Shown piece after piece: positions 8,194 through 44,996 of a stretch of 64,000 nucleotides of DNA (the first letter of the stretch is position 1; the number at the start of each line of letters is the position of its first letter). The stretch is from a virus (Duplodnaviria; Heunggongvirae; Uroviricota; Caudoviricetes): the IMG/VR virus record IMGVR_UViG_3300024259_001450, positions 124,076 through 188,075 of that record, one strand, 5' to 3'. A program made the position numbers and the translations under genes. The notes below the pieces were generated by a model, which worked only from the letters and a program-made list of their open reading frames with translations, was not told the origin of the DNA and made no database searches.

Positions 8194-9843
8194 TTAGAGG
8201 TTTCCTTGAACAAAGTCGCTAATGATTCGTGGGCAGTTGGCATCGAACCCGGCAATGTCGACCATTCCGCCATCATTCGGGTCTGCAACCGTGAACTCAG
8301 TAGCAGTCATTCCGATCACGATCAACTTAGAACCAATACCCATAGCCTGACGATAGTTCCGCAACGCCTTAGCAGGCTTAACATCACCACGCCAAGTTTC
8401 GTTATCAGTGATAACAACGAAAGCGTCTACAGGAACCTTATTCTTCTGTGCCCAAATCATAGGCAACGCACAGTCGGTTCCACCGAAACTCAAGTTTCTA
8501 GTCTTGTTAAGAGCGCTGTTCAAACTGTCTCTTGCAGTAATCTTCAAATCTACTAGTTCATGACAGAAACCACGAATCTCATAGTTCTTTTCAGAACGAG
8601 CAATCGTCATAGCCATTGCTGCCGCACCTTCGCTTGGTAGCAAGTTAGGAATTCCACAGATGTCACTCCAAGTCATAGAACCACTTACATCAATACCAAG
8701 CATGTAGTTAGCACCAGTAGATTCAACATAGTTGAAACTCTTGTAGAAAGCATCTTCCAAAGCGTCCTTAACTTGAGAGATAGGATTCCAAGACAAATTA
8801 CCACGGAAACCATGTCCCTTTTCGTAGGTACGCAAAGCCGCAAGCAGTGCGATAGGATGCACACGAGCAGTCTTTAGATTTTCCTCGTCTGTAAGTCTGT
8901 CAACCACTAAACGAGTCTTGTCACCCATAGAAACCAGAGTACCAGCAGCGGTCAAAGGACCAAGACTACGAATCGTAGCAGTCATAGGCATATGATTTAC
9001 TAGTTCATCCAATACTGCCTTTTCCTTCATGAACTGCGTAGGAATACTTTCACGAGAAAGCTTATATTCCTTGATGATGCTAATAGCGATCTTAGCATTT
9101 TCTGCACCCTTAATCAATTCGTGACCATAGATGTAACGCAAGTCCTCATAATCGTTTAGGTTGTCGAAACTCTTATCAAACCCTTCAACTCCCTTTGCGG
9201 CATAACAGAAAGCCAAGTCGTGCGCCTTCGTTGCAGGAGTTACATGAGCCTTACGCAGAATATCACGGTGACTCCAAGGCAATTCGCCTTCTACGGAACG
9301 AGACTGGTACTTGCAAATCTGATAAGCAACAGAACTCGCGCTCTTGTCGTTATACCAATTTGCGAAAGCCTTACGCAGACCACGGCCCCAACCAGTACCT
9401 ACCTTCATTTCCTTAACGAAGGAAGCGAAAGTGAACAAATGAGTACCGATACGACATACAGCATTCAGATGTGCCAAAGCATACTTACGAACAGCTTCAT
9501 TTTCATGAACTGCTGCAAGAGCCAATACAAAAATAGCAGTGTCGTTCTTGGCGATACGACCTTCGTGACTCATCTTAACAACTTCGTCAATAACTGCCAC
9601 ATGATCCTTACCTAAGAAGCTGATAAGGAAATCGGCGTTATTACGAGAAAGCTTACGCTCCGTAACGTAGTAACTTCCGTTTGTAGTTCCAAGTGTCAGG
9701 AACCTACGAAGACGATTGATATCACTTACTTGGTAGACGAATCCACCAGCGTTATTCTTTACCTGATTCGGTTCGTCCTGAACCATTTGATGTGCGTTCC
9801 CTCTAACTGACTTTCCAGAAATTTGAGCGATGTTCTTAGCCAT
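8194..9843 (-). CDS. rsr: Ro60/Rsr-family protein (TROVE plus vWA domain)
   Basis: N-terminal TROVE signature strongly resembles Ro60 (GGFVYQVSDINRLRRFLTLGTTNGSYY versus human [27 protein letters not shown]). C-terminal vWA/MIDAS motif (GIDVSGSMTW). Confidence 0.85.
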   Translation of the reverse strand: MAKNIAQISGKSVRGNAHQMVQDEPNQVKNNAGGFVYQVSDINRLRRFLTLGTTNGSYYVTERKLSRNNADFLISFLGKDHVAVIDEVVKMSHEGRIAKNDTAIFVLALAAVHENEAVRKYALAHLNAVCRIGTHLFTFASFVKEMKVGTGWGRGLRKAFANWYNDKSASSVAYQICKYQSRSVEGELPWSHRDILRKAHVTPATKAHDLAFCYAAKGVEGFDKSFDNLNDYEDLRYIYGHELIKGAENAKIAISIIKEYKLSRESIPTQFMKEKAVLDELVNHMPMTATIRSLGPLTAAGTLVSMGDKTRLVVDRLTDEENLKTARVHPIALLAALRTYEKGHGFRGNLSWNPISQVKDALEDAFYKSFNYVESTGANYMLGIDVSGSMTWSDICGIPNLLPSEGAAAMAMTIARSEKNYEIRGFCHELVDLKITARDSLNSALNKTRNLSFGGTDCALPMIWAQKNKVPVDAFVVITDNETWRGDVKPAKALRNYRQAMGIGSKLIVIGMTATEFTVADPNDGGMVDIAGFDANCPRIISDFVQGNL

Positions 9844-10170
9844 GATTTTCTCCCTTTCTTTTTCTCAGACCCATTCGGGTCAATTCTCACAATTGTATTA
9901 TAGCAAGAGATAGTGGAAATTTTCGTGATGTGGCAAAAAAAAATACGACCAGAAGTTCAGGGCCGTTAATACACTTTTTATCCAATAAATCAGATCAGGT
10001 TGTCACCTGTTCCCAACTTTCATTTTAATTTGCCTACAGTTGTGGTCAGCAATTTTATAATTAATAATATAGCCTTTAGGGGTTTCTGGTCGCATATATT
10101 GTAACAGGCAAGGATTGCTATAGGCGTTTTACGTGTGCTACCGTTGCACCACAGCCATAAAAGGGTAAAA

Positions 10171-10243
10171 CTTGAAATATGGCCGCTAGGAGTCGAACCC
10201 AGTTCTCGGATTTATGATATCGTTAACCTATTGGCTTCAGCCC
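10171..10243 (+). ncRNA. Candidate Y-RNA-like structured ncRNA, unit 1
   Basis: Shared 3' motif GTTAACCTATTGGCTTCAGCCC. A 5' segment (TATGGCCGCTAGG) is complementary to the 3' arm. Sits in the intergenic region next to rsr. Strand uncertain. Confidence 0.4.
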
Positions 10244-10290
10244 GTATACATGCTCGTTATGAAGTTTTCAAATAATATAATAAAAATAGG

Positions 10291-10364
10291 CAAGTTGTTG
10301 TAAATAGGATTGGTGGTGCGGCCCGCGAAGGCCGCGATCAGAGTTAACCTATAAACTTCAGCCC
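10291..10364 (+). ncRNA. Candidate Y-RNA-like structured ncRNA, unit 2
   Basis: 5' arm AAGTTGTTGTAAATAGG is complementary to 3' arm CCTATAAACTTCAG. Internal GC hairpin GCGGCC-CGCGAA-GGCCGC. TATAAT-like box about 12 nt upstream. Confidence 0.4.
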
Positions 10365-10383
10365 ATATTTAATTCTAATTTGG

Positions 10384-10442
10384 TCGAGTAGTTGTCGATA
10401 GCAATCGTTATCAGGTTAGGTTAAGCTATCAACTTCAGACCA
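10384..10442 (+). ncRNA. Candidate Y-RNA-like structured ncRNA, unit 3
   Basis: 5' arm AGTTGTCGATAGC pairs with 3' arm GCTATCAACTTC. Shares GTTAAGCTATCAACTTCAGACC with the other units. Confidence 0.4.
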
Positions 10443-10590
10443 TTAATGCTGGGGGTTGGATTTGCACCAACTTTTGCTATCTTTTCGAAAGACCTTCGGG
10501 GGGACGAACGTATCCGAAGTAGCAAATACGCCTTTCAGCGATTTCCCAGCGGATAAGACTATATAAAACTGTATTTTATTTTCAATAATG

Positions 10591-10658
10591 AAGTCAAGCT
10601 GTTGTCAATACCGTTTTTGGCCTTATTTAATGTAAGTTAAGGTATCAAACTTCAGACC
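10591..10658 (+). ncRNA. Candidate Y-RNA-like structured ncRNA, unit 4
   Basis: 5' arm AAGCTGTTGTCAATACC is complementary to 3' arm GGTATCAAACTTCAG. Same 3' consensus as the other units. Confidence 0.4.
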
Positions 10659-10711
10659 TCAGTATATTATAGCGCCAAGTGCGTTTTTTTAAGTAGCCGG
10701 TGAAAATTTTT

Positions 10712-11608
10712 TTATGAACGGTTGACATAGTTAAATCTAGACATAAACTTTTCCTTCGCTTTATATGTCTCTCTGCCAAAAAAGTCTATCGAGTTATCTG
10801 CTAAATCAATTTCTAGATTTTCCCATCTATTTTTGAGATAATTCCTTATCCATTGAAACAAAGGTTTTTCACTATTAGTATGTCCAAGTTCAATAATATG
10901 GTCAAATCTATGAGGAGTATTATCGATATTTGATGTTAATTCTCCTGTAATAAAAACATCAGCTTTAAATTCGTTCACACGCAGTGGAGTATTCTCCCAA
11001 CCAGCATGAGTCAAGGCCAATCCTCCCATTCCAGAACAATACAGAACGTCGTGAATTGGTTTATTGTTTAGGTCTTTACTCCATATGCAACCGTCTACTT
11101 TAAAACCTCTTCTTTCCAATAAATCGGATAACTCGTTAAACAACAAGGGTTTAGGCAAAAAACCATGGTAATATATTCCAGCAATTTGTTTGGTATGAGT
11201 AAATCCAAATCTTTTGGCGAAGAAGCCATTATGTCCTTTGGGTTCGATATCCATTGCGATATGCATAATAACTTGTGGCACATCTACTAGGAAATCGTGA
11301 TGGCCCACCAAGAGATCGTAATCGTTTTCAATGAAGTAATTCCTTACTTGGCCAGTAGGTGTGGTAGCTAATAGAATTTTTTTAACTATTTTATTAGGAG
11401 TATCACTAAATAATCCCCATCTGTCACAAAAAAGTTTCCACTCAGGCGACTCTTCTGGATATATCTTTGCCAAGTAATTAGTAATCTCTATTTGAGAGGG
11501 TAATCCCTCTTTTGGAGTTCTTACAAGGGGATTCCCCTTATATTGAGTAGAGTGTGGACTTTGTGGAAATCTCATATTCTGTGTCATCATTGTTCTTCCT
11601 TCAAACAA
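10712..11608 (-). CDS. Nif3/YbgI-family-like dinuclear metal-centre protein (tentative)
   Basis: Two His-rich motifs spaced as in the Nif3 family (LLVGHHDF… near the N-terminus; HIIELGHTNSE near the C-terminus). Confidence 0.4.
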   Translation of the reverse strand: MFEGRTMMTQNMRFPQSPHSTQYKGNPLVRTPKEGLPSQIEITNYLAKIYPEESPEWKLFCDRWGLFSDTPNKIVKKILLATTPTGQVRNYFIENDYDLLVGHHDFLVDVPQVIMHIAMDIEPKGHNGFFAKRFGFTHTKQIAGIYYHGFLPKPLLFNELSDLLERRGFKVDGCIWSKDLNNKPIHDVLYCSGMGGLALTHAGWENTPLRVNEFKADVFITGELTSNIDNTPHRFDHIIELGHTNSEKPLFQWIRNYLKNRWENLEIDLADNSIDFFGRETYKAKEKFMSRFNYVNRS

Positions 11609-11692
11609 TTATAGAAAAATTTTTATTTGTAAAAAGGAAAAACTTATAAAAACTAAAATAAAATAAATGATCTCCTTTCTCTCTTTCTGCTA

Positions 11693-11727
11693 GGGCGGCA
11701 ACTGTTTGAGTTGTCGCCCTTTTATAT
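11693..11727 (+). terminator. Rho-independent-terminator-like hairpin
   Basis: GGGCGGCAAC-tgtttga-GTTGTCGCCC (10-bp stem, one mismatch) followed by TTTTATAT. Confidence 0.35.
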
Positions 11728-11869
11728 AAAAGGTTTTTGGTGGCTTTGATTAAATGTATAATTATGAGTATGCAAAATATATTGGAAAGACACAAATCAC
11801 TTCTTCAACGACTATAAACTGCCGTAGATTGATTGTCCCTCCGATAATTATAAATGGAAGGAGATTAGT

Positions 11870-12568
11870 ATGCCCTACGTAATAATATCTATTGACCCAG
11901 GACTGACCGGTGGTATTGCTATTATTGATGGAAGGAAACGTCCAAAGATAACGAGAATGCCTGTTGTTTCAGTGATGAGAAATAAGAAAAAAAAGAACGA
12001 ATACAATTTAGAGAAAATTGTTGAGATTTGTAAGGAATATATTGATAAGGATGTAGTCTGCGCGGTTGAAAGACAAAGTGTAAGACCTGGCGAGGGTAAT
12101 GTATCAGGTTTTACGACTGGTGTGGGCTATGGATCATTAAAAGGAATAGCCGTTGCTTTAGGCTTTAAACTATTAACAATTGTTCCTGCTGTTTGGAAAA
12201 GGCACCATAAAGAGCTAGATACTGAATTGTTTCTTGAGTTACGAAAAGAAATTAAAGACATTAAACAAAAGAGCAAGGTAACAAAGGATAAAGCCCTAAA
12301 AAAACAGTATAAAACAGATATAGCTAGAGCTAATCGTAAATTAAAATATGAAGCCAAGAAGCAATCAAGGCTATTATGTCAGAAGAAATACTCTAGACTA
12401 AAGAATGAATTAAAATTAGTCAAAGACGATGGAAAATCTGATGCTTTACTAATGGGCTTATATGTGAGGGATAATATCAATGAACTGGTACCAACAAACG
12501 AGAATGAAGAAACAGAGCCAATATTGGCATCGAATGCTAATAAAGCAGCAAAAAAGACGAAAAGATAA
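11870..12568 (+). CDS. RuvC-like Holliday-junction resolvase
   Basis: N-terminal IISIDPGLTGGIAIID matches the RuvC/YqgF motif I. Downstream acidic residue (AVERQ). Lys-rich C-terminus. Confidence 0.5.
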   Translation: MPYVIISIDPGLTGGIAIIDGRKRPKITRMPVVSVMRNKKKKNEYNLEKIVEICKEYIDKDVVCAVERQSVRPGEGNVSGFTTGVGYGSLKGIAVALGFKLLTIVPAVWKRHHKELDTELFLELRKEIKDIKQKSKVTKDKALKKQYKTDIARANRKLKYEAKKQSRLLCQKKYSRLKNELKLVKDDGKSDALLMGLYVRDNINELVPTNENEETEPILASNANKAAKKTKR

Positions 12569-13779: not shown

Positions 13780-13935
13780 ATTATGGCTAAATTCAATTTG
13801 AAACAGTTAAAAAAAGATATAAAGAAACAGGCTTTAAAGAGAAGAATTGATCAAAGGAAGCCAACTAAAAAGACAGCAAATGCATTCCCTTCTCTGCGTA
13901 AGAAACGAGGCGGATGTGGTTGCGGAGGTTAAAAA

Positions 13936-16900
13936 TGGGAGACGCACAAGCAAAATCTGTTCACGAAAAGATAAATGAAATTCTATGTGATACTTCATTT
14001 AAATATGATCAGTCTGCCTGCTTGTGCGATTTACTTAATTCATTTCGTTATTTATCATATGAATTGATTCAAAATCCTCAGATGCTATTAGAGGATTTGA
14101 TTCAGAACAAAATAGAATCGAACAAGGGATATTACCCATTGGATGTGGTAGAATTGCGGTTGGCGTTGTCACAAGACAGAATTCCGTCTATTAAGCCAAT
14201 GCTATTTTCTTATAAGTTTACACAAAAGTATTTACAAGATTACCCCTTGCTTCTATGTATAGATATTTCTAAAGATGATTATAGCTGCTTTGGCGGATTG
14301 GCTATAGGAGAATATTATTCTTCATTGCATAACTCTTTAAAAAGAATCTATATTTCATCTAAATTGAGCAAGAAAACAATCGAAGATGTACAAAACATTT
14401 TAAAGGAAGAAGATATTAAGTGCGATATGATAGTTGATACTAAAGTTCCAGGTTTGTCTAATCCCAAATTGGCTGCTGCTTTAAATGCGTATATAGTCAA
14501 TATATCTCAGCTAGGCATTGAAGACGAAACTATACACGCCGACACTGAAGAGGAAGCAGTTGCCGATGCTATTAACCGTAAATGGGATCGTGTACAACAA
14601 GCTAAAAATCTTAGATACAGAGAACATAAGTATAGACCGCAAACATGGCTCAAACTTCGTAATACGGAATTTTGGAGCAATATGGTTAGACATGCTCATA
14701 CTGTCAAATCAATTAAAATGGCTCAATTGAATGATAATATCCAACTGTCAGAAATAGAACAAAAGATATTTAATTTCATAAAGATGGTTATAGCAGATTT
14801 GAAACAAAAAGGAATGGATGCAGAATGTAGAGTTGCTGGCGGATGGGTCCGTGATAAGCTAATGGGATATGAGAGTGACGATATTGATATCGCTACCAAT
14901 ATATCTGGTATACAGTTGGCAAACTATATGTCGAAATATGCTCGTGATCATAATATAGACGGCGTGGGGAATGCCCATGAAGTCAGTCTTGAAAAACTAG
15001 TAGATAAAGATGGTGATGAAGGCGAAGAGACATTAAAAGTCGGCGGCATAAATATCTTTGGGCAAAAGATTGAATTTGTGCCAATGAGAAAAGAAATATA
15101 TGATTCAGAAAGCAGAAAGCCAACTATAGTTTTAACTAACAATGTAGAAGACGATGTACTCCGTCGTGATTTGACAATCAACTCATTGTATTACAATATA
15201 TTGACTGGCAAAGTAGAAGATTATGTGGGCGGAAAAGAAGATTTGGAAAAGATGGTGTTGAGGACACCAGCGGGTGCATTAGAAGGATACGATGGGACAT
15301 TGAAAACGTATATTGAAGACCCTCTTAGGATGTTGAGAGTATTGCGTTTCTATACTCGTTATCCTAACGCAAAAATAGATAGTAACATTATCAAGGTTAT
15401 GGAGCAATCTAAAGACCCTAATTCTGAATTCTCGAAAGCGTATAAGGCGAAAGTTGCACCAAGTAGGTCTTCTAAAGAACTCAGAAAAATGATGCAATCT
15501 AAAGACCCAATTCCAGCAAGTAGACTGTTATTGGATTCTAACTTCTATAAATTAGTATTCAATGTAAGTCCTGAATGGTATAACATGGACATGGATCAAC
15601 AAAGTCCTTTTCATAATCTTACATTGAAAGGGCATACTCTTCGCGTAATGGAAGAGTTAAAAAACATAGCAAACGAAATCGGATTAGAAGACAACAGTGA
15701 TGAAAGAGGATTGGTTCTTTTGGCTGGTCTGTTGCACGATTTTGGAAAAATGTCACCTGATATTCGTGCCCCTAAGATTGATAAGAAAACTGGTAAGCCA
15801 GTTACATTCCAAAGGGGAGAAGAAACTGTAGAACGTATGCGTTATATACGTCACGAAGTGGAATCAGCTACATTCTTGTCTCAGACACTCAAAGACATGA
15901 ATTTCAATGAAGAGGAACGAGATTTTGTTGAATTGATTGTTAGAGGTCATATGACACCTACTAATTTGAAGAAATTTGTAGAAATGTATGAAGAGAAATC
16001 AAAATCAGGTAATTCTAGAAAAGCAAAAGATACGATGAATCGTCATTTGGGACAATTTTTACAGAGTGTAGACCAAAGGCTTGATACATTGATGATGGCT
16101 ATAGAAAATGTTAAAAAAGATACCAGAATCAGTGATGAAGATAAAGCCAATAGAATAAAAGACTTAGAAAAATGGATTACACCATATGGTCGTTTGTGGC
16201 AATGGATTATGTATCATCATCGTGCTGATTCAATGGGCAAAAGTGATATGACTGAGCGTGAAATAGAGGAAACTAAGGCGATTAATCAGAAACTTATAAA
16301 TGTAGTAAAAAACTATAGAGATACGCTGGGAACGCTTACCAGAACGCCTGTTGGAGATAAGTTTGGTAATGTAATTCGAGAAATGATGCAAGAACTTGTA
16401 CCAGACTTGCCAAGGGACGCTATGTTGAGCGATTCAAGGATTAAGCGTCCAACGCACTATATCAAGTTTATTATGATGAAAGTGATTGAACAGCAGCAGT
16501 TGGGCTATATAAAGACGCTAGACGATGCTAAAGAATTTATTCGTAAAAGTGGTCGTAACTGGGGTAATATATGGAAACAGCAAATACGGAGACAGCAAAT
16601 GTCAGAATATCATGAAACGAATCTTGCTAATAATTGGTACAAAATGCAAAAGAAAGCGGATGCTTCATCTGCGTCTGAACCATCAGGGTTTGATGGCTAC
16701 GAAGGGCAAAGCCCATTAGAAAGAGTCGATATGCCATATACAATGGAAGATAGAAGTTCTCCTCTTCCTTTCCAGGTTGGAGACAAGGTGAGAGTAAGGC
16801 AAGTCGGAATGATTTATGAGCAAATAGAAGGTCGTGTTGTAGACGCTCAGGAGAATTTGATTGTTATAGATTGGCAGACTGGTAGGTACGCAGGAAAAAC

Positions 16901-16952
16901 TGAGAAGATGACTATGGATAAGGCAACTATAAAGTTGGATGTTATCAAATGA
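13936..16952 (+). CDS. cca: CCA-adding tRNA nucleotidyltransferase (class II head plus HD domain) with long N- and C-terminal extensions
   Basis: Pol-beta-like head motif AGGWVRDKLMGYESDDIDIAT with RRDLTINSLYYN. HD motif LLAGLLHDFGK. GGAGG RBS 8 nt upstream of ATG at 13936. Confidence 0.8.
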
Positions 16953-17302
16953 TGAATTGGTTTAAAAAGGCTGATGGTGAATATAAAGTGTGGTTAGATG
17001 ACTTGAGAGAAATGCCGCCAGAATACGATATTCACGTAAAAACCGCATCTGAAGCTATTGAAGTGTTAAAAACTGGTAAAGTAACACATATGTCCTTCGA
17101 TCACGATTTGGGAGAAGGTAATGGAAGCGGGTATGATGTAGCAAGTTGGATTGAAAGAGCCGCTTATGATAATAGCATACAGCCTATAAAGTTTTCTTTA
17201 CATACACAGAATACTGTTGGAATGGAAAATATGAGTGCCGCGTTATTAAATGCCAATAGATTTTGGCGAGAACATCAAGAAAAGGAACAAGATGTGGTAT
17301 AA
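16952..17302 (+). CDS. CheY-like receiver (REC)-domain-like small protein, MNWF-tagged
   Basis: Starts MNWFKK with TGATG coupling. Conserved REC-like positions (LDDL, FDHDLG, LHTQN). Paralogous to 48491..48868. Confidence 0.4.
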   Translation: MNWFKKADGEYKVWLDDLREMPPEYDIHVKTASEAIEVLKTGKVTHMSFDHDLGEGNGSGYDVASWIERAAYDNSIQPIKFSLHTQNTVGMENMSAALLNANRFWREHQEKEQDVV

Positions 17303-17810
17303 AACAGCTAAAATTGGGTTTACAAAAGAGCAGTTGAATCGTAAACTAAAAGAATTAGTACGTAAAGATTCTTTCTTTAAATTTATGTTTAAAGAATTTG
17401 AAGTTCCTTTTGAAGCAATGGATAACGGCGGTTTAACTTTTATGGCTAAGAAATTAAACGGAAAATTTGCTGAAAGTAATGGCAAATTCATTTTTTTGAA
17501 TGAAAAATTGTTTGAAAAAGATAATTTCTTTGCAAATGGTATACATTTTGTGGTACATGAGTTATTGCACTGGTTAACAAGACAACGAGAGAAAGACTTT
17601 TATTTCACTGATCCAGAAGAAATAGATGCATTCGCTTACGGGATGGCTCACGAAATGCAGAAAGGGAAAGGAAAAGAACATATCGAAAGAGTTTTTTATC
17701 CAATTATTAAAGCCCATTTCAAGAAAAAGAAAAATGCAACAAAAATATTTAATCTAATTTTCAAGCTGGCGTTGCGAAAACAATCGAAAATGAAGAATAA
17801 TTTATCTTAA
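17292..17810 (+). CDS. HExxH zinc-metallopeptidase-like protein, MWYK-tagged
   Basis: Internal start MWYKTAKIG. HELLHW motif. Confidence 0.4.
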   Translation: MWYKTAKIGFTKEQLNRKLKELVRKDSFFKFMFKEFEVPFEAMDNGGLTFMAKKLNGKFAESNGKFIFLNEKLFEKDNFFANGIHFVVHELLHWLTRQREKDFYFTDPEEIDAFAYGMAHEMQKGKGKEHIERVFYPIIKAHFKKKKNATKIFNLIFKLALRKQSKMKNNLS

Positions 17811-17891
17811 AAAGGATATTAGCCGGAAAAATCAAAACTGTAAAATAGTAAGATTATAAGGTAAGTCCCTTAATTATGTGGGGTAAATATT

Positions 17892-18620: not shown

Positions 18621-18622
18621 AT

Positions 18623-22680: not shown

Positions 22681-22720
22681 TCTCTAACCTTCTATAATGA
22701 ATAGACGCAGGAGATATATC

Positions 22721-23260
22721 ATGACGCAGAAATACTACAAATATCCACGAACTTTTCATTTCCTTTGGAGTGAGAATCTTCAGAATGATGATCGTCTGCT
22801 TCCGTCGATGGATGATTTTATAGGTAAAGAAATCGTTATCACGGAAAAAATGGATGGTGAGTGCCTTGACGAAAATGTTTTGATATCAACAGACCAAGGA
22901 GAAATTTCTATTGGAGAAAAATGTTTTTGTAATGATAGAGAAAGCTTTGTCAAATATATTGTTCTTAGGTTGAGATTCCACAATACAAAAGAAAAATTTA
23001 GGGAACTTCGAAAAAGAGCAGAAGATATCGTAGATGAAGTAATATTTTTGTGGAAAAAGAAGGAAAAAGAACGTAAAGAGGGAAATACTGAAAAAGCGGT
23101 TAAAGTAGGCGGATATAAACCCGGCATTAATGAAAAGCCACTTACAGAGGGTTACCAGCCAAAAGCTTCCGCTTCTCAAGAGATCATTCCTCCTTCTCCA
23201 CCAAGAAAACGTATTAAAGTTAATCCGCAGATGTGTCCTCATTGCGGTAAGGAGATATAA
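22721..23260 (+). CDS. Rnl2-family-like (KYPxxxH…EKxDG) motif protein, short, possibly a remnant
   Basis: MTQKYYKYPRTFHF…ITEKMDGE resembles the RNA-ligase (Rnl2/PF09414) N-terminus with nucleotidyltransferase motif I KxDG. AGGAGAT RBS. The protein is only about 180 aa. Confidence 0.3.
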   Translation: MTQKYYKYPRTFHFLWSENLQNDDRLLPSMDDFIGKEIVITEKMDGECLDENVLISTDQGEISIGEKCFCNDRESFVKYIVLRLRFHNTKEKFRELRKRAEDIVDEVIFLWKKKEKERKEGNTEKAVKVGGYKPGINEKPLTEGYQPKASASQEIIPPSPPRKRIKVNPQMCPHCGKEI

Positions 23261-23818: not shown

Positions 23819-24727
23819 ATGAGTAAGCTGATTGTATTACGTGGTCTGCCAGGTTCTGGCAAATCGACCAAGGCGAAAGAAATTGTACAGCAAGACCATA
23901 ACGCTGTACGAGTCAATAAAGATGCGCTTAGAGATATGCTTTTCTTCATCTCAAAAAGTGATCATTCGGAATGGTCAAATAAGAGAGAAAATATTGTTAA
24001 AAAGGCACAACTTGAACTTGTGAGAACTTTACTTGCCAAACATAAAACGGTTATTATAGATGATACTAATTTAAATCAGAACACCGTCCGAAGATGGGAA
24101 GATGTAGCATTGCAAGGCAATCACAAATTCCAAATTATTACCATTGATACTGATGTAGAGGAATGCATCAAGCGTGATGCTCTGCGTGATATTACTGTTG
24201 GTGAAGAAGTTATCCGAAAATTCGCTTCTGTTCATCATATTGGTAATAACAAAGCAGACGACCAGAAGGCTTTTGACTGTCCTGATGATAAGAAAATTGT
24301 CATTTATGACTTAGACGGTACACTTGCTGATGTTGAACATAGATTGCATTTCATTAATGGTGGAGTTCGAAAAGATTGGGCTGGATTTTTCGACGGAATG
24401 AGTAAAGACCCTCTTAGAGAAGGGGTTGCCAGTCTAATTACAGATTGCTATAAAGATCACATAACTATTATAGTAACAGGGCGTCCTTCAAATTACCGCA
24501 CTAAAACAGAGAAATGGCTTAAAAAACATAACATACCATATAAGGCTCTGTATATGAGGAAAGCTGGTGATTTTAGACCTGATTATATTGTCAAACAAGA
24601 AATCCTCGATAAATTCTTGCCAAAAGACAAAATTGAGATGATCGTGGACGATAGGAAATGTGTTTTGGATATGTGGAGGTCGAATAGATTACCAGTAATC
24701 GATGTCGGCGATGGCACAGATTTTTAA
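23819..24727 (+). CDS. Polynucleotide kinase-phosphatase (T4 Pnk-like)
   Basis: N-terminal P-loop kinase LRGLPGSGKST. C-terminal HAD phosphatase motif VIYDLDGTLAD…IVDDR. Confidence 0.8.
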   Translation: MSKLIVLRGLPGSGKSTKAKEIVQQDHNAVRVNKDALRDMLFFISKSDHSEWSNKRENIVKKAQLELVRTLLAKHKTVIIDDTNLNQNTVRRWEDVALQGNHKFQIITIDTDVEECIKRDALRDITVGEEVIRKFASVHHIGNNKADDQKAFDCPDDKKIVIYDLDGTLADVEHRLHFINGGVRKDWAGFFDGMSKDPLREGVASLITDCYKDHITIIVTGRPSNYRTKTEKWLKKHNIPYKALYMRKAGDFRPDYIVKQEILDKFLPKDKIEMIVDDRKCVLDMWRSNRLPVIDVGDGTDF

Positions 24728-24787: not shown

Positions 24788-25204
24788 ATGAAACAAAGTA
24801 GTGCATGGAAAAAATTAGGCAAACCAGTTGTAGTAGTTGATTTCGATGGCGTTATTATGGATTACACCAAGGGATTTCGAGGGGTTGATGTTTTCGATGA
24901 AGCCGTTGATGGAGCAGGCGAAGCATTACAAGAATTGCAAGATGCAAATTGGCATATCGTTATTTTCACCACACGGTTTGCTTCACCAGCATTGGTGGAA
25001 TGGCTCAAAGATAAAAAGATTCCATATAATGCATTGAATTCTACAGATCACAATCCTCCCAATACGTCGCATAAGCCTATTGCTACTGTATATTTAGATG
25101 ATAGAGCATGGCCTTGGGGTGGAAAACAGTATACAAAAGAAACATGGCAACAGATTGTCAAGGACTTGAAAAAGATGCAGAAAGAAATGTCTGCGTTTGC
25201 ATAA
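24788..25204 (+). CDS. HAD-superfamily phosphatase-like protein
   Basis: VVVDFDGVIMDY (HAD motif I) and YLDDR-type motif. Confidence 0.5.
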   Translation: MKQSSAWKKLGKPVVVVDFDGVIMDYTKGFRGVDVFDEAVDGAGEALQELQDANWHIVIFTTRFASPALVEWLKDKKIPYNALNSTDHNPPNTSHKPIATVYLDDRAWPWGGKQYTKETWQQIVKDLKKMQKEMSAFA

Positions 25205-30398: not shown

Positions 30399-30407
30399 TA
30401 TTCCTCC

Positions 30408-35095: not shown

Positions 35096-35157
35096 GGTGA
35101 TACCTCATACCTATATTATCGTCATACCGATTAAACAAGTGGAGCAAGGAGATTCGT

Positions 35158-36261: not shown

Positions 36262-36319
36262 TCTCTGTTGGTGCTGAACAATCTTGTACAATGGTCATGT
36301 AACATCTGAGGAGAAAACA

Positions 36320-36733: not shown

Positions 36734-36734
36734 A

Positions 36735-37019: not shown

Positions 37020-37020
37020 T

Positions 37021-38119: not shown

Positions 38120-38213
38120 TGTTAGATAACAATGCACCAACCACTGGTTTGGAGTGTAAACAAAGAACACTAGATACTGATCTAGATTTAGAAAAAATTA
38201 ACGAATCAATTTA

Positions 38214-39441: not shown

Positions 39442-39450
39442 GGAGAAACA

Positions 39451-40609: not shown

Positions 40610-41675
40610 AATGAATAGAAGAAATTTCTTAAAAACTTTAGCAGTTGCTAGTGCGAGTGGGGCATTGCCTATCAAATTATTAGCATCTAACAACAAGCCA
40701 CTTCATTTAAATCAAGAAGAAAAAGAATTTGTTGCCAATCAAGTACACCATTTTATTTGTAGACATGCTGAACATTATTGGATAACAAGAATGTGTTTAC
40801 TTGTAGATGAAATTCCACCAAAGAAAAAACCTATTTATGAACGAGACTCTTATAGCAAAGGAGATTTTGCCGTTTATATGAGAACTGATTTCCCTATGTT
40901 TTTCTCACCTGTATGCCCAGCTAGGCCAAGGGAAATACAGCAACGTTGGAGATTGCCATCAAGTAATATATATCCAAGTTTTTATTGGCAAAACAGAAAA
41001 TGTATTACGGTTCCCACTTATGATATCGAAGGTACTTCTTTGCAATTCACTGAAAAAGAAATTAAAGGATTCAAAAATAAAACATTCACAAAGAGTGCCA
41101 ACGAAAAGGTGAAAAAACTTTCGGAGCATTTAGAGAAAACAGAACTGAATGATTTGATTTATCTGTTGGATTTTAACTGTTTATCAGAGATTGAAGATAA
41201 TTATTGGATGAATCCATTAAAACATTGTAAGCGTTCTCGTAATTTACAAACACATATATTTGTTTGTGATAAAAAGGAGGATTTGCACGATGCCGTCAAT
41301 GATGCTTTCGCGTTTATAGAGTGCCAAGAAGATTTGGTGGTTAATATGATTATTAATCCAAATACAATGGAAAAAATAAAGCACTTATTTACTGATGATG
41401 AACTTGAGATAAATGAATATAGGAACTCGTGGCATTTTATAAATCCTTTATACGGCTATATGTGGCTTTGCAGGATTTTAGTTCATGAGGCTGTTCCAGA
41501 AAAGTCCATATATATTATGGGTTCTCCTGATCGTTGTGGTGTATTGCCCCTAGAAAAAGATTTGCAAACACACTATAATGATGATAATACATGCACAACA
41601 TCGGAGAAAATAGGAATGTCTATTGTATATCCCAATTCTGTTATGAAAATTGAACTAGATGACTCTATAATATAA
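40610..41675 (+). CDS. Tat-signal-peptide protein (predicted exported)
   Basis: MNRRNFLKTLAVASASGALPIKLLA: twin-arginine RRxFLK plus hydrophobic h-region plus A-x-A-like site. Confidence 0.45.
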
Positions 41676-41688
41676 TAGAGGAAATAAA

Positions 41689-43713
41689 ATGCCGAAATCA
41701 CTGTTTCGCTATCCTGGCGGAAAATCAAAAAAAAGCATATTGGATAAACTCTGGGCTAAAGCGCCCAAAGAGTTTTCTGAGTATAGAGAACCATTTGTAG
41801 GCGGTGGAGGGCTGTTTTTCGATATCCCTAGCACCAAATGTAAAAAACGGTGGATTAACGATATAGACAGCAATCTAATAGCTGTCTATGATGCTTTCAG
41901 GAACCGCCCAGAAGCCTTTATATCGCTCTGTAAGGCCATCGAACCACAAAAGGCGGGCGAAACCCTAACTTCCTCTAAACCAGGCGGAAAAGAGATTTAT
42001 AACGCTCGTTTAAAAGAGGTTTTCGATAAATTCGTTGCAGATAAAGACATGGATAGGGCATTGCGTTATTTCTTCCTTAATAGGACTAATTGGGGTGGTA
42101 GAGTTGATTATGACAGACCTTCACGATTATACTATTCAAATCCTCAAGGATGGAATATCGTTAAAGGCGATACACTAGAAAAAGCAGCAAAACATATAAA
42201 AGGAGCAAGAATAACCAATCATTGTGCTTCTATCTTGCTTAAAGAACCAGGTAAGGATGTTTTTATATATTGTTTTCCAAAAGATTCTAAAGTTAAAATG
42301 GCCAACAGAACTCTTAAGAAAATACAAAATATTGAAATTGGAGATAAAGTCTTAGGAGGCAGGACAGTCAAAAAAGTCTTTTGTAATCATTATAATGGCA
42401 AAATCGTAAATATTAAAATTCAAGGCTCACCGTTTATGATAAATATTACTGATGATCACCCGATGATGGCTATAAAAAAAATAAATTCTAAACAAGAAAA
42501 AAGAAACGTTGAGAAATTAGAGAAATCGATAAAACTTATTGATGCCGGAAAATTACAAATTGGGGATTATCTATGTGTCCCTGTTGGCTGCGACAACGGC
42601 AATCAATGGAACTGGGGTTTTGAGCCGTACAAAGGTGACCCATATTACGGCGATAAAAGAAAAACCAAGATAAATAAAATATCTTTTATTCAAGATGATA
42701 TTAAAATTGCCAATATATTAGGGCTTTATTCCGCTGAAGGAACTGCCTCAAAATATATAGTGCATTTTTATTTTAGTGTAAAAGAAAAAGAAATAATCAA
42801 AAAGCTTTGTCAAGATATAGAAGATGTATTTAATTATAAGCCTGTTGTTTATGAAAAATCACCTAGCGATAGTGTAACAACTGTTGCCATCCACTCTGTT
42901 GTAATAAGCTCTTTTATCCGCAAATGGGTTAAAGGAAAAAGTCGCAGATGTGATATCCCTAATAAAAGATTCAGCAATAAAATATTGGAAGCTCCTCAGA
43001 AAATATTATTTCAGATTCTAAAATCGTGGCTTTTGGGAGATGGGGGATTTTGGAATCCCGGTAACGGTAAGGGTAAAGTAACTGGCACTAGTGCTTCTTA
43101 TGAATTAGCTTTACAAATGTATGACATAGCTCTCCAATGTAAATTGCGACCTGGCTTCAAAAAACGTCAAAACTGTTATGATGTTTATTTTTCTATTGCC
43201 GATGAAATTAAAAAATTAGGTTATGACATCGAAAGCGGCAAAAGTAGACCACAGCGTAAAATAACAAACGATTATATTTTGTCAAGAATTACAAGAATTT
43301 CAAATATTGATTTTTTAGGCAATGTTTACAATTTACATGTTGATAAAGATAATTTGATATGTGTGGATGGTGTTATGTCGCATAATTGTGATCCGCCTTA
43401 TGTCGTAAATTCTGATTTAGCTAAGAGTTCACAATTGTATGCAAATAATTTCACAGAAGAAGATCATATTAAGTTGGCAGGAATTATTAAACAATGTAAA
43501 CACAATGTGTTAATTAGTTACGACGATCATAAGTTAATAAGAGAATTATATTTGCCAAAAGATGGATTCCATATTTTCGATGAGGAATGGACATATTGTG
43601 GAACGTCGAGTTCAGAAGATGCTGGCGAAGACAATAAACAGAAAAAAGTCGGCAAGGAATTATTAATTACCAATTACGAAGTCGAAAAAGAAACAGATTT
43701 ATTTGAAGAATAA
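41689..43713 (+). CDS. dam: Dam-family N6-adenine DNA methyltransferase interrupted by an intein
   Basis: Motif I FRYPGGKSK. Extein junction …DVFIY|C…HN|CDPPYVV (E. coli Dam has VYCDPPY). Confidence 0.8.
   Translation: MPKSLFRYPGGKSKKSILDKLWAKAPKEFSEYREPFVGGGGLFFDIPSTKCKKRWINDIDSNLIAVYDAFRNRPEAFISLCKAIEPQKAGETLTSSKPGGKEIYNARLKEVFDKFVADKDMDRALRYFFLNRTNWGGRVDYDRPSRLYYSNPQGWNIVKGDTLEKAAKHIKGARITNHCASILLKEPGKDVFIYCFPKDSKVKMANRTLKKIQNIEIGDKVLGGRTVKKVFCNHYNGKIVNIKIQGSPFMINITDDHPMMAIKKINSKQEKRNVEKLEKSIKLIDAGKLQIGDYLCVPVGCDNGNQWNWGFEPYKGDPYYGDKRKTKINKISFIQDDIKIANILGLYSAEGTASKYIVHFYFSVKEKEIIKKLCQDIEDVFNYKPVVYEKSPSDSVTTVAIHSVVISSFIRKWVKGKSRRCDIPNKRFSNKILEAPQKILFQILKSWLLGDGGFWNPGNGKGKVTGTSASYELALQMYDIALQCKLRPGFKKRQNCYDVYFSIADEIKKLGYDIESGKSRPQRKITNDYILSRITRISNIDFLGNVYNLHVDKDNLICVDGVMSHNCDPPYVVNSDLAKSSQLYANNFTEEDHIKLAGIIKQCKHNVLISYDDHKLIRELYLPKDGFHIFDEEWTYCGTSSSEDAGEDNKQKKVGKELLITNYEVEKETDLFEE
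42271..43386 (+). mobile_element. Intein (372 aa) with LAGLIDADG-type homing-endonuclease domain inside dam
   Basis: Starts Cys (CFPKDSKV…), ends …VMSHN followed by extein Cys. Internal ILGLYSAEG and LLGDGG LAGLIDADG-like motifs. In-frame. Confidence 0.7.
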
Positions 43714-43761
43714 TTAAGTTAATTTTACTGACACTATAATGAAAATGAAAGGAGACGCATT

Positions 43762-44232
43762 ATGGGTGGTTTATTAATTTTGATTGGTTTTATTATCGTG
43801 TTTTTGCTCCCGTCTATAGCAGTTTGGAAATTGAGCGGCTGGGGCAAATTAGGCAATGTAGCAATTTATTTCATGTTGGCAGGAATATTGGTTGTTCCAC
43901 TTTGTTTGGGAACCCTATATATGACTACGGGCCTTGGACCCAATTATGGAAGCGGTGAAGTTGATGTAAATATTATGCACTGCAATTATGAAGGCATAAT
44001 TTGGGAAACATATGAGATAAAAGGAACTGCTGGTGAAGAGAACAGAGATTTTATCAAGTATGGTTTTTCTACCAACGATGATAAGATTGGTAAATTCTTA
44101 CAAGATAACATTGGAAAGAATGTGCGTATAAAATATAAGATATGGCTTATGGCCCCAGCTTATGTTGGAAATGACACATGGCAAATTACTGATGTAAATG
44201 ACGGAAATGGATGGCTTTCTGAAAGAGAATAA
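43762..44232 (+). CDS. Membrane protein (two N-terminal transmembrane helices)
   Basis: GGLLILIGFIIVFLLPSIAVW and IYFMLAGILVVPLCLG hydrophobic segments. Confidence 0.4.
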   Translation: MGGLLILIGFIIVFLLPSIAVWKLSGWGKLGNVAIYFMLAGILVVPLCLGTLYMTTGLGPNYGSGEVDVNIMHCNYEGIIWETYEIKGTAGEENRDFIKYGFSTNDDKIGKFLQDNIGKNVRIKYKIWLMAPAYVGNDTWQITDVNDGNGWLSERE

Positions 44233-44234
44233 AA

Positions 44235-44996
44235 ATGGATAAGACAAGTTTAGGTGACAGAATAAAAGGATACGAGGGAGTTTCTCGTAATTTCCTTGTA
44301 GGAAGAATGCCAGTAATCTGTCGCGTCGATGGACGAGCATTTCACACATTCACCAAACACTGTGAAAAGCCTTTCGATAAGAACATTATATCGGCAATGG
44401 TTCACGGTGCAAAACAGGTGGCAGATGATATGCAGGGATTCAAGGTTGGATATGTCCAATCAGATGAAGCATCGTTTGTAATCACAGATTATGATGAAAT
44501 AAACACACAAGGATGGTTTAACTACAATCTTAGTAAAATGATATCTATGTCTGCATCTGTAATGACTTTGCATTTTAATAGTTATTATAGATATCTAGAC
44601 GAGAATATTGTGGTCAATGGATCAGCAGTAACAAGGTTAAGACCTATTCCTAATGGTTATTTTGATTCTAGAGCATTTAATGTGCCAAGAGAAGATGTTT
44701 CAAATTACCTATTGTGGCGTTGCCAAGATTGGAAACGTAATAGTTTACAAATGTATGCTCGTTCTGTCTATTCTCACAAAGCATTAATGAACAAGAATCA
44801 GGACGACATGCACGAACTGTTGCACCAAAAGGGTAAAAATTGGGCTACAGATTTGAGTAATGTAGAGAAGAATGGAACATTTTTGGTGAAAACAGATGAT
44901 GGAATAGGAACAAGATCAGACATTAGACCATCGTTTGAGGAAATCAGTGCTGTTGTGGAACCATTGGTTTATCCGTTAGAGAAATTGGAGAAATAA
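44235..44996 (+). CDS. Thg1-like protein (tRNA-His guanylyltransferase family 3'-5' nucleotidyltransferase)
   Basis: VICRVDGRAFHTFTK…KPFDKNII…VGYVQSDEASFVI parallels the Thg1 catalytic motifs (VVRLDGRNFH…; YGQSDEYSFVF). Confidence 0.7.
   Translation: MDKTSLGDRIKGYEGVSRNFLVGRMPVICRVDGRAFHTFTKHCEKPFDKNIISAMVHGAKQVADDMQGFKVGYVQSDEASFVITDYDEINTQGWFNYNLSKMISMSASVMTLHFNSYYRYLDENIVVNGSAVTRLRPIPNGYFDSRAFNVPREDVSNYLLWRCQDWKRNSLQMYARSVYSHKALMNKNQDDMHELLHQKGKNWATDLSNVEKNGTFLVKTDDGIGTRSDIRPSFEEISAVVEPLVYPLEKLEK

What the first reader, a model, noticed from the sequence alone, without database searches (positions are those of the whole stretch)
8194..44996. Dispersed phage-encoded tRNA/RNA repair and quality-control repertoire
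The window encodes Ro60/Rsr, a CCA-adding enzyme for the 3' end, and a Thg1-like 3'-5' polymerase for the 5' end. It also has T4-type polynucleotide kinase-phosphatase plus an extra HAD phosphatase, an Rnl2-like ligase motif protein, and one tRNA-like gene. This is a nearly complete kit for healing and sealing tRNAs. It would suit a counter-defence role against host anticodon nucleases, as in the T4 Pnk/Rnl versus PrrC paradigm. The combination with Ro60 plus Y RNAs and a Thg1-like enzyme in one phage is unusual.
Basis: partly seen in the sequence, partly recalled or inferred. Interest (0 to 1): 0.7.

Follow-up and report, generated by a model that had tools for sequence, protein, structure and literature searches.

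The report
Huge-phage RNA end-repair and Ro60/Y-RNA genes
A very large bacteriophage carries scattered genes for mending the ends of transfer RNAs, plus a Ro60 protein with four small partner RNAs; gene sets like this are already described in giant phages, and here the enzyme that would rejoin cut RNA is only a broken remnant.

Summary
The gene calls largely hold. Profile and structure searches confirm:
- Ro60/Rsr (8194-9843, -)
- a long class II CCA-adding-type nucleotidyltransferase fused to an HD phosphohydrolase (13914-16952)
- a T4-type kinase-phosphatase, PNKP (23819-24727), with a small HAD phosphatase (24788-25204)
- a bacterial-type Thg1-like protein, TLP (44235-44996)

I also found:
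- two cREC cyclic-phosphate domains
- four Y RNA genes with covariation support
- a tRNA-like element
- a fifth conserved structured RNA, all just upstream of rsr

The "Rnl2-like ligase" is not a ligase. Only about 47 extein residues up to the KxDG lysine survive, followed by about 20 residues of an intein start and an orphan tail. Relatives carry the same gene intact, or split by an intein plus a homing endonuclease. So "healing and sealing" is not supported within this window. The intact set fits ligase-independent repair or maturation of tRNA 5' and 3' ends, plus Ro60/Y RNA quality control.

The repertoire is not unusual. Iyer et al. 2021 catalogued TROVE, CCA, Thg1, PNK-HAD, cREC and RNA ligases across jumbo phages. 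The genes sit in separate small modules, and the rsr cassette looks like an insertion.

Verdict: a new member of a known kind, of modest interest. The RNA cluster is the most interesting part.

The parts
8194..9843 (-). Ro60/Rsr ortholog (549 aa): TROVE ring plus vWA domain with a DxSxS MIDAS motif
   Evidence: Relatives at 81-53% identity keep Y RNAs upstream.
9865..9883 (-). Hairpin in the rsr 5' UTR (UUGACCC-GAAU-GGGUCUGA), just upstream of the Shine-Dalgarno sequence. It reproduces the basal Ro-binding helix of the Y RNAs in permuted order. Candidate autoregulatory site (inferred).
   Evidence: one copy per locus, always 5' of rsr, in the window, L013, L014 and L016, with compensatory changes. 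Chance expectation is 0.28 per 64 kb. Absent in L015.
9935..10095 (-). Fifth conserved structured RNA. It has a 12-bp basal stem, an internal loop with invariant CCCCUAAAG / GAAC, a 4-bp stem, a variable apex and a U9 tail (terminator-like). Family unknown.
   Evidence: 4 sequences, 14 of 28 pairs with compensatory change. No Rfam match.
10097..10249 (-). Y4: a Y RNA whose internal loop is a permuted tRNA-like domain (T arm, closed acceptor-like stem, D arm), i.e. YrlA-like architecture
   Evidence: fold. (CM hit of 29.8 bits, although not in the training set). No hit to Rfam YrlA RF02553.
10279..10370 (-). Y3: stem-bulge Y RNA
   Evidence: RF01656 nematode sbRNA, 33 bits, gathering cut-off 38; 67.6 bits; covariation.
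10373..10447 (-). Y2: stem-bulge Y RNA
   Evidence: RF01656, 29.3 bits; z -3.9; 64.5 bits.
10448..10550 (-). tRNA-like element: 6-bp acceptor stem, short D arm, long extended 'anticodon' arm, T arm. It abuts Y2 and starts about 7 nt after a promoter-like -10 box. Inferred processing punctuation, and a possible RNase P or CCA-enzyme substrate.
   Evidence: MFE -37.7, z -4.0. (acceptor and T arm conserved in L013, with one compensatory pair). Not called by ARAGORN or Rfam tRNA.
10583..10664 (-). Y1: stem-bulge Y RNA, directly downstream of a GCTATAATA -10 box (10665-10673)
   Evidence: 60.4 bits.
10712..11608 (-). NIF3/DUF34 protein, first gene of the minus-strand rsr cassette. Linkage is conserved only in the closest relative.
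13914..16952 (+). 1012-aa protein: unassigned N-terminal alpha/beta domain (about aa 10-260), class II CCA-type nucleotidyltransferase (GGWVRD...DxD, RRD, EDPLRMLRVLRF), HD phosphohydrolase, and a C-terminal extension with a small beta domain
   Evidence: (catalytic columns invariant in 42 homologs).
16949..17302 (+). cREC (cyclic-phosphate-processing receiver) domain protein. Its start overlaps the stop codon of the CCA gene.
   Evidence: PF20274, 8.5e-26. Absent at this position in L022 and L023.
22697..23260 (+). Remnant of a PF09414 (Rnl2-family) RNA ligase: extein aa 10-56 ending EKMDGE, then about 20 aa of intein block A (CLDENVLISTDQGEISIGEKC), then an orphan 110-aa tail
23819..24727 (+). 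T4-type polynucleotide 5'-kinase / 3'-phosphatase (P-loop GLPGSGKS; HAD DLDGT)
   Evidence: Syntenic with PNKP in L022 and L023.
24788..25204 (+). Stand-alone small HAD phosphatase, a conserved neighbour of PNKP
   Evidence: 66% identical homolog near PNKP in L023.
44235..44996 (+). Thg1-like protein (TLP), bacterial type, with catalytic D / DE motifs retained (RVDGRAFH, QSDEAS)
48416..48868 (+). Second cREC domain protein
   Evidence: PF20274, 1.8e-12.
58908..58980 (+). The only canonical tRNA call, and it lies outside the finding's range. ARAGORN calls Cys-GCA. No CCA is encoded, and the acceptor stem has two mismatches.

Best explanation
The window is part of a huge phage genome; identical proteins occur on contigs of up to 188 kb. 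It carries several small, separately acquired RNA-metabolism modules of the kind already catalogued in jumbo phages.

Shown by sequence and structure:
1. A minus-strand cassette: NIF3, then Y1, a tRNA-like element, Y2, Y3, Y4, a fifth RNA, then rsr.
2. A long CCA-type nucleotidyltransferase fused to an HD domain, translationally coupled to a cREC protein.
3. A decayed Rnl2-family ligase gene, followed by an intact PNKP and a small HAD phosphatase.
4. A stand-alone bacterial-type TLP.

Inferred mechanism:
- After host nucleases damage tRNAs, the PNKP phosphatase, the HD domain and cREC clear 2',3'-cyclic or 3'-phosphate ends.
- The PNKP kinase supplies the 5'-phosphate.
- The CCA enzyme rebuilds the 3' end, and TLP refills a truncated 5' acceptor strand against the 3' strand.
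- By analogy with Deinococcus, Salmonella and Thermus phage phiLo, the Ro60-Y RNA particle tethers host PNPase to degrade misfolded or irreparable RNAs.

The cognate ligase is broken, so in this phage the intact enzymes suit ligase-independent repair of the acceptor ends. That differs from T4-style resealing of anticodon-loop nicks. Sealing, if it occurs, needs a ligase encoded elsewhere or the host RtcB.
For: - Family placements.
- Y RNA cluster: motif enrichment. The covariance model finds exactly four hits, all on the minus strand next to rsr. 93.2% of cells are paired against 73.9% in shuffles (0/500 shuffles reach it) and 24-50% with slid partners; 8 of 12 pairs show compensatory changes.
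- Clusters of 2-4 Y units lie upstream of rsr in four relatives with 81-53% Ro60 identity.
- Ligase decay: only aa 10-56 match. Homologs P0002 and P0010 are N-extein plus N-intein, then a DUF7487 endonuclease, then C-intein plus C-extein. Syntenic relatives L022 and L023 have an intact ligase two ORFs upstream of PNKP.
- Prior knowledge: PMC7824862, PMC2904730 (Thg1-PNK linkage), PMC4201824 (YrlA is a substrate of RNase P and the CCA enzyme), PMC12135203 (phage Ro60-Yrl-PNPase).
Against: - No activity, expression or phenotype has been tested.
- The genes are spread over 37 kb on both strands, with unrelated genes between them and no shared regulatory signal. The GCTATAATA -10 box is shared only by Y1, rsr and the tRNA.
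- The rsr cassette and cREC are absent at these positions in syntenic relatives, so the set was assembled piecemeal.
- The CCA protein scores below every NCBIfam equivalog cut-off. CCA-adding, A-adding and poly(A) activities cannot be told apart by sequence.
- Only 64 kb, plus about 9 kb on each side, of a genome of at least 188 kb was seen. An intact ligase may exist elsewhere.
- No capsid or terminase gene lies in the window, so the phage assignment rests on context: a gp32-like SSB, a RuvC-like resolvase, homing endonucleases, PHROG hits and contig sizes.
Confidence: 0.6

Rival explanations
1. The enzymes serve maturation rather than repair. They process the phage's own tRNAs and tRNA-like Y RNA domains: CCA addition to genes that do not encode CCA, 5'-end completion by TLP (for example G-1 of a phage tRNA-His), and end trimming by PNKP, HD and cREC. 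They are not directed against host nucleases.
For: - The one tRNA in the window lacks an encoded CCA and has a defective acceptor stem.
- Related contigs carry several tRNAs near rsr.
- YrlA-type RNAs are substrates of RNase P and the CCA enzyme (PMC4201824).
- The tRNA-like element abuts Y2.
Against: - Only one tRNA lies in 64 kb, and no tRNA-His was seen.
- Most bacterial hosts already have a CCA enzyme.
- PNKP is not needed for ordinary tRNA maturation in bacteria.
- tRNAs of relatives have normal acceptor stems.
Confidence: 0.3
2. There is no system. The genes are independent accessory genes that accumulate in huge phages, each with its own role (or none), and their co-occurrence within 37 kb is incidental.
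For: - Dispersed layout on both strands.
- Lineage-specific insertion of the rsr cassette and of cREC.
- One member, the ligase, has already decayed.
- Each family occurs separately in many phages: 355 records with Ro60, 162 with TLP, 49 with cREC.
Against: - Local linkages are conserved across relatives: Rnl-PNKP-HAD, CCA with orf17250, and Y RNAs with rsr.
- The biochemical complementarity of PNKP with TLP and with CCA is well documented (PMC2904730).
Confidence: 0.25
3. The Ro60-Y RNA cassette is an offensive takeover device rather than a quality-control one. It captures host PNPase to redirect RNA decay, or to interfere with crRNA maturation, as proposed for Thermus phage phiLo. It is unrelated to the tRNA enzymes.
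For: PMC12135203. Four Y RNAs with different loop modules could tether different host partners.
Against: This is purely by analogy. No PNPase-binding module can be recognised by sequence here.
Confidence: 0.2
4. The 187-aa ligase ORF is the functional N-half of an atypical split intein with a very short N-intein. A C-half encoded elsewhere in the genome is joined to it by trans-splicing to give an active ligase.
For: - The intein block A start is preserved directly after EKMDGE, at the same insertion site as in P0002.
- The ORF is identical on 8 contigs.
- Fractured genes with split inteins exist in this very window (45440-47959).
Against: - Similarity to the N-intein stops after about 20 residues. 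Block B (TxxH) is missing, and an orphan 110-aa tail follows.
- No endonuclease gene or C-half lies in 64 kb, whereas in relatives they are adjacent.
Confidence: 0.15

Closest known systems
Jumbo-phage RNA repair repertoire (Iyer, Anantharaman, Krishnan, Burroughs, Aravind 2021, Viruses 13:63; PMC7824862)
   Same: The same families appear: TROVE/Ro with a tRNA-like RNA partner, CCA-adding enzyme, Thg1, PNK-HAD, a stand-alone HAD, cREC and Rnl2-family ligases. They are scattered in large phage genomes and are read as counter-measures to host attack on tRNAs.
   Different: This phage is not in the phage collection searched (no megablast match). It combines Ro60, CCA and Thg1, which the paper scores as present in a small subset, several, and only a few of its group 2 and 3 phages respectively. 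Its ligase is decayed.
T4 Pnkp plus Rnl1/Rnl2 healing-and-sealing against the PrrC anticodon nuclease
   Same: PNKP has the same two-domain architecture and catalytic motifs. Ancestrally it was paired with an Rnl2-family ligase two ORFs upstream.
   Different: No intact ligase is present here, so the sealing step is not encoded in the window. CCA, TLP and Ro60 are not part of the T4 system.
Bacterial and phage Ro60-Y RNA RNPs (Deinococcus Rsr/Yrn1/PNPase; Salmonella rsr-yrlBA-rtcBA; mycobacteriophage YrlA; Thermus phage phiLo Ro60-Yrl1/2)
   Same: Y RNA genes lie directly beside rsr on the same strand. One of the Y RNAs carries a tRNA-like domain (PMC4201824). The arrangement has already been seen in phages.
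   Different: - There are four Y units plus a separate tRNA-like element and a fifth RNA.
- Both strands of the Ro-binding helix are conserved, as in metazoan Y RNAs. The best Rfam match is the nematode sbRNA family, not YrlA.
- There is a Y-like hairpin in the rsr 5' UTR.
- No RtcB or RtcA is linked.
Thg1-like proteins (BtTLP, PDB 4KGK) and the phage or bacterial TLP-PNK-ligase neighbourhoods (PMC2904730; Omegavirus mycobacteriophages)
   Same: Bacterial-type TLP with conserved catalytic carboxylates. It co-occurs with PNKP in the same genome.
   Different: Here TLP is 20 kb from PNKP and stands alone. In Kalah2 it is two ORFs from the polynucleotide kinase.
Fractured genes with split inteins and a free-standing homing endonuclease (Dassa et al. 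2009, recalled from memory)
   Same: Relatives of the ligase show exactly this arrangement: N-extein plus N-intein, then an endonuclease, then C-intein plus C-extein. The window's IMPDH/GMP-reductase-like gene shows it too.
   Different: In the window's ligase only the first ~20 intein residues remain. The endonuclease and the C-half are gone.

Membership tests
Ro60/Rsr (TROVE) | TROVE HEAT-repeat ring plus a C-terminal vWA domain with a MIDAS motif, over the full length | tested here: met
   (TROVE and vWA_Ro60). (aligned over aa 25-545 to Xenopus Ro60; DVSGSM present). Scores below the NCBIfam Rsr equivalog cut-off (492 against 900 bits).
Ro60/Rsr (TROVE) | Bound to Y RNAs | not testable with these tools
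   Only adjacency of Y-like genes is shown. Binding needs RIP or EMSA.
Y RNA | 5' and 3' ends pair into a conserved bulged helix (the Ro60 site), with a variable internal loop | tested here: met
   covariation, 93% paired, 8 of 12 pairs compensatory.
Y RNA | Match to a curated Rfam Y family at the gathering score (Y_RNA RF00019, YrlA RF02553, or sbRNA RF01656) | tested here: not met
   The best matches are RF01656 at 33 and 29.3 bits, below the cut-off of 38. There are no hits to RF00019 or RF02553.
Class II CCA-adding enzyme | Head-domain motifs A (GGxVRD...DxD), B (RRD) and D (EDxxR) on a class II fold | tested here: met
   alignment; invariant G309, G310, R313, D314, D323, D325, R417, R418, D419, D469-R475; Foldseek, Arabidopsis CCA enzyme, 3e-20.
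Class II CCA-adding enzyme | Adds C-C-A, rather than A only, CC only or poly(A) | not testable with these tools
   Below all NCBIfam equivalog cut-offs. Needs an enzyme assay.
T4-type Pnkp | N-terminal P-loop 5'-kinase fused to a C-terminal DxDxT HAD 3'-phosphatase | tested here: met
   aligned end to end with T4 Pnk 1ltq and Pnkp1 4xrp; GLPGSGKS and DLDGT present.
Thg1-like protein (TLP) | Thg1 palm domain with catalytic Asp and Asp-Glu; closer to bacterial TLPs than to eukaryotic Thg1 | tested here: met
   BtTLP 5e-45 against human Thg1 3e-8; RVDGRAFH and QSDEAS aligned.
Rnl2-family RNA ligase (PF09414) | Complete nucleotidyltransferase domain with motifs I, III, IIIa, IV and V | tested here: not met
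   Only motif I (EKMDGE) is present. No Pfam hit. An HMM search with filters off and tblastn find no remainder in the window.
Split-intein fractured gene | N-intein with blocks A and B, a C-intein with blocks F and G plus a +1 nucleophile, and usually an endonuclease gene between them | tested here: not met
   Only block A is present in the ligase ORF. All features are met in relatives L005 and L006.
cREC | Divergent receiver domain, PF20274, above the gathering score | tested here: met
   (90.9 and 48.2 bits against a cut-off of 27).
Canonical tRNA (for the element at 10448-10550) | Recognised by tRNA models, with a 7-nt anticodon loop and a canonical T loop | tested here: not met
   The fold shows a cloverleaf-like shape with a 48-nt 'anticodon' arm.

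The most novel reading that the evidence does not exclude
The rsr cassette may be a self-contained, self-regulating RNP operon of a kind not yet described. It would consist of:
- an array of metazoan-type (both-strand) Y RNAs, cut apart at a tRNA-like punctuation element
- an additional, unclassified structured RNA (CCCCUAAAG/GAAC loop) as a further partner
- a Y-helix mimic in the rsr 5' UTR, through which Ro60 represses its own translation when free of Y RNA

Together with the loss of the ligase, this phage lineage would have shifted from nick sealing to ligase-independent repair of tRNA acceptor ends by PNKP, CCA and TLP.
Probability: 0.2. Interest if true: 0.55.

Novelty: new member of a known kind. 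Interest (0 to 1): 0.35.

Why it matters
- It adds an uncultured huge phage to the list of phages that carry both a Ro60/Y RNA particle and tRNA end-repair enzymes.
- It shows that annotating a ligase from a motif alone can mislead. The ligase here is a relic of an intein and homing-endonuclease invasion.
- The well-supported four-gene Y RNA array, with its tRNA-like spacer, an extra conserved RNA and a possible autoregulatory hairpin, is a compact and testable model for how phage Ro60 RNPs are made and controlled.
- An intact PNKP, CCA enzyme and TLP without a ligase suggests acceptor-end repair as a counter-defence distinct from the T4 paradigm.
- None of this changes current concepts.

Tried and rejected
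- Megablast of the CCA gene against 50,697 phage records found no match.
- A Y RNA sequence pattern scanned in IMG/VR gave only chance hits inside coding regions.
- I searched for the missing ligase half with a CcrSC ligase, with C-halves and endonucleases from relatives, and with a family HMM run with filters off. Nothing turned up.
- Walking about 9 kb beyond each window end found no RtcB, Rnl1 or Rnl2.
- I tested whether cREC-CCA linkage is general. It is not present in L022 or L023, and the Atu_ph07 cREC neighbourhood is uninformative.
- I tested whether TLP might edit mismatched 5' ends of phage tRNAs. tRNAs of relatives have normal acceptor stems, so this is rejected as a general pattern.
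- I did not establish a full co-occurrence table of Ro60, TLP, CCA and PNKP across phage records. The tool lists at most 60 rows, and the part of Rhodococcus phage Weasels2 that I inspected shows TLP, RtcB and a 2'-5' RNA ligase but no Ro60.
- A literature search for Ro60 autoregulation through its own mRNA found nothing relevant.

Full report
**What is there.** The window reads as a densely packed, mostly plus-strand stretch of a very large phage. It holds:
- a ClpP-like protease, a sliding-clamp-like protein and clamp-loader delta, and DnaJ
- a RuvC-like resolvase, a gp32-like SSB and an NAD-dependent DNA ligase
- several inteins and homing endonucleases, and a tail-fibre-like 1142-aa protein

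Identical proteins occur on metagenomic contigs of up to 150-188 kb. There is no match at the DNA level in 50,697 phage records. No capsid or terminase gene lies in the window, so "huge phage" is a contextual inference.

**Checking the named proteins.** Profile searches support five of the six calls.
- *Ro60 (8194-9843, minus strand).* It hits vWA_Ro60 at 1.2e-63 and TROVE at 1.3e-33. It aligns over its whole length to Xenopus Ro60 at 8.7e-126, which is better than to Deinococcus Rsr at 4.5e-107.
- *The 1012-aa protein (13914-16952).* It has a PolyA_pol head domain and an HD domain. Motifs GGWVRD...DxD, RRD and EDPLRMLRVLRF align to eukaryote-type CCA enzymes. These residues, and the HD histidines and aspartates, are invariant in 42 homologs of 860-1030 aa, which share the N- and C-terminal extensions and sit on contigs of up to about 550 kb.
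  - An AlphaFold model built from that alignment is confident (pLDDT 86). All 41 significant Foldseek hits are class II CCA-adding, A-adding or poly(A) enzymes.
  - The N-terminal domain (about aa 10-260) remains unassigned.
  - The protein scores below every NCBIfam equivalog cut-off, so the exact nucleotide specificity is open.
- *PNKP (23819-24727).* It aligns end to end with T4 Pnk and with bacterial Pnkp1.
- *The 138-aa HAD protein (24788-25204).* It is a conserved neighbour of PNKP (66% identical homolog in L023).
- *The Thg1 family protein (44235-44996).* It is a bacterial-type TLP: BtTLP at 5e-45 against human Thg1 at 3e-8, with the catalytic carboxylates in place.
The other is at 48416-48868.

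**The ligase is a relic.** The 187-aa ORF at 22697-23260 matches RNA ligase profiles only over aa 10-56 and has no Pfam hit. After the motif I sequence EKMDGE comes CLDENVLISTDQGEISIGEKC, which is the start of an intein.
- Database homologs explain this. P0002 and P0010 are N-extein plus a complete N-intein, followed by a DUF7487 homing-endonuclease gene, and then a gene for C-intein plus the ligase C-half. That is a fractured gene.
- The window keeps about 20 intein residues and then an orphan tail with no homologs.
- tblastn with four different ligases, C-halves or endonucleases, and a family HMM with filters off, find nothing more in 64 kb.
- Two syntenic relatives have an intact 244-272-aa ligase two ORFs upstream of PNKP. 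These are L022 (63 kb) and L023 (114.6 kb; CCA 44% and PNKP 53% identical), which share the order DnaJ, CCA/HD, orf17250-like, Rnl, PNKP.
- The gene lists for about 9 kb on each side of the window show no other RNA ligase.
- A functional atypical split intein cannot be excluded, but it is the less likely reading.

**The RNA genes.** These are the best-supported addition.
- *Evidence for four Y RNAs.* Between NIF3 and rsr, on the rsr strand, the motif GGBCTGAAGY occurs four times and nowhere else in the window (expected 0.32).
  - Two units hit the nematode stem-bulge RNA family, whose members are Y RNA homologs (PMC4726728), just below threshold (33 and 29.3 bits against 38).
  - Rfam YrlA and vertebrate Y_RNA do not hit.
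- *Conservation and covariation.* Four relatives with 81-53% identical Ro60 carry two to four such units upstream of rsr.
  - A covariance model built from 14 units finds exactly four matches in the window: 10583-10664, 10373-10447, 10279-10370 and 10097-10249. It also recovers units that were not in the training set.
  - On the resulting alignment 93.2% of cells pair, against 73.9% in shuffles (0 of 500 reach it) and 24-50% when partners are slid. 8 of 12 pairs show compensatory changes.
- *Y4.* Y4 carries a permuted tRNA-like domain: T arm, closed acceptor-like stem and D arm. This fits the rule that one Y RNA per species mimics tRNA (PMC4201824).
- *The tRNA-like element (10448-10550).* A separate cloverleaf-like element with a long "anticodon" arm lies between Y1 and Y2 (z -4.0). 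Its acceptor and T arms are conserved in L013, but tRNA finders reject it. It starts a few bases after a promoter-like -10 box and ends 1 nt before the Y2 model hit (3 nt before its basal stem). I infer that it acts as a processing signal.
- *A fifth RNA (9935-10095).* Downstream of Y4 there is a conserved structured RNA with a covarying 12-bp stem, an invariant CCCCUAAAG/GAAC internal loop and a U9 tail. It has no Rfam match.
- *The rsr 5' UTR hairpin.* The leader contains UUGACCC-GAAU-GGGUCUGA, which is the basal Y helix in permuted order. It recurs, with compensatory changes, at the same place in three of the four distinct relatives (chance expectation 0.28 per 64 kb). Autoregulation by Ro60 is a hypothesis only.

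**Organisation.** The genes form four local modules rather than one system:
1. NIF3, the Y RNAs and rsr
2. CCA/HD, cREC and orf17250
3. the Rnl remnant, PNKP and HAD
4. TLP alone

Relatives lack the rsr cassette and the cREC gene at these positions, so the set was assembled stepwise. The only shared signal I found is a GCTATAATA -10 box in front of Y1, rsr and the tRNA.

**How it probably works.** This part is inferred. PNKP, the HD domain and cREC would clear 3'-phosphate or cyclic-phosphate ends and phosphorylate 5'-OH ends. The CCA enzyme would rebuild the 3' terminus, and TLP would refill the 5' strand of the acceptor stem. Ro60 with its Y RNAs would recruit host PNPase to remove defective RNAs, as in Deinococcus, Salmonella and Thermus phage phiLo. 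With the ligase gone, the intact enzymes fit ligase-independent repair or maturation of tRNA ends better than T4-style resealing of anticodon nicks. Rival readings are maturation of phage tRNAs and Y RNAs, functionally unrelated accessory genes, or an offensive use of Ro60. None of them is excluded.

**Comparison with what is known.** Iyer et al. 2021 (PMC7824862) list the following as the jumbo-phage RNA repair repertoire: RNA ligases, TROVE proteins with a tRNA-like partner, PNK-HAD, a stand-alone HAD, cREC, CCA-adding enzymes and sporadic Thg1. Anantharaman et al. 2010 had already linked Thg1 to polynucleotide kinase and ligase and noted a phage copy. In the phage collection, Ro60 occurs in 355 records, TLP in 162 and cREC in 49. 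Omegavirus mycobacteriophages have TLP two ORFs from a polynucleotide kinase, with an RNA ligase 14 kb away.

**Verdict.** The finding is a new member of a known kind. I score interest at 0.35, mostly for the Y RNA array and its associated RNAs.

Noticed in passing
45440-46396, 46459-47172, 47156-47959 (+): An IMPDH/GMP-reductase-like gene is fractured by a split intein, with a free-standing endonuclease ORF between the two halves. The N part ends in [10 protein letters not shown]..., and the C part has ...VVHNC|GYPQLS. The C-intein resembles that of the ligase relatives.
   Followed up: partly
41689-43713 (+): A D12-class DNA methyltransferase is interrupted by an in-frame intein of roughly 380 aa (CFPKDSKVKM ... 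VMSHNC).
   Followed up: no
58908-58980 (+): The only tRNA call has two consecutive acceptor-stem mismatches (G3.G70, C4/U69), discriminator C and no encoded CCA. Its anticodon register is ambiguous: GCA by ARAGORN, or UGC with a better-paired stem. tRNAs of relatives are normal.
   Followed up: partly
9935-10095 (-): A conserved structured RNA of unknown family lies next to the Y RNAs. It has a covarying basal stem, an invariant CCCCUAAAG/GAAC internal loop and a U-run.
   Followed up: partly
9865-9883 (-): A Y-helix-like hairpin sits in the rsr 5' UTR just before the ribosome-binding site. It is conserved, with compensatory changes, in three of the four distinct relatives. I found no literature on Ro60 autoregulation of this type.
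   Followed up: partly
13914-14700 (+), aa ~10-260 of the CCA protein: A confidently folded alpha/beta N-terminal domain is conserved in more than 50 long CCA/HD homologs from large contigs. It has no Pfam or Foldseek assignment.
   Followed up: partly
17250-17810 (+): A 186-aa protein with an HExxH-like motif (HELLH) is the conserved downstream neighbour of the long CCA/HD gene in relatives L022 and L023. Its function is unknown.
   Followed up: partly
8194-9843 (-) and 13914-16952 (+): Both Ro60 and the CCA core score better against eukaryotic proteins (Xenopus and human Ro60; S. pombe and Arabidopsis CCA enzymes) than against bacterial ones among solved structures. No phylogeny was made.
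   Followed up: no
48416-48868 and 50678-52696 (+): The second cREC gene lies 1.8 kb upstream of an NAD-dependent DNA ligase. cREC has been tied to NAD/ADP-ribose-centred systems (PMC7824862). An ADP-ribosylglycohydrolase and a Cas3-like HD-helicase lie just beyond the window's 3' end (L017).
   Followed up: no
6077-11608 (-): The block with the 307-aa ORF, an ankyrin-repeat protein, rsr, the Y RNAs and NIF3 lies on the opposite strand to its surroundings. It sits between DnaJ and the CCA gene, where syntenic relatives have other genes, so it looks like an inserted cassette.
   Followed up: partly
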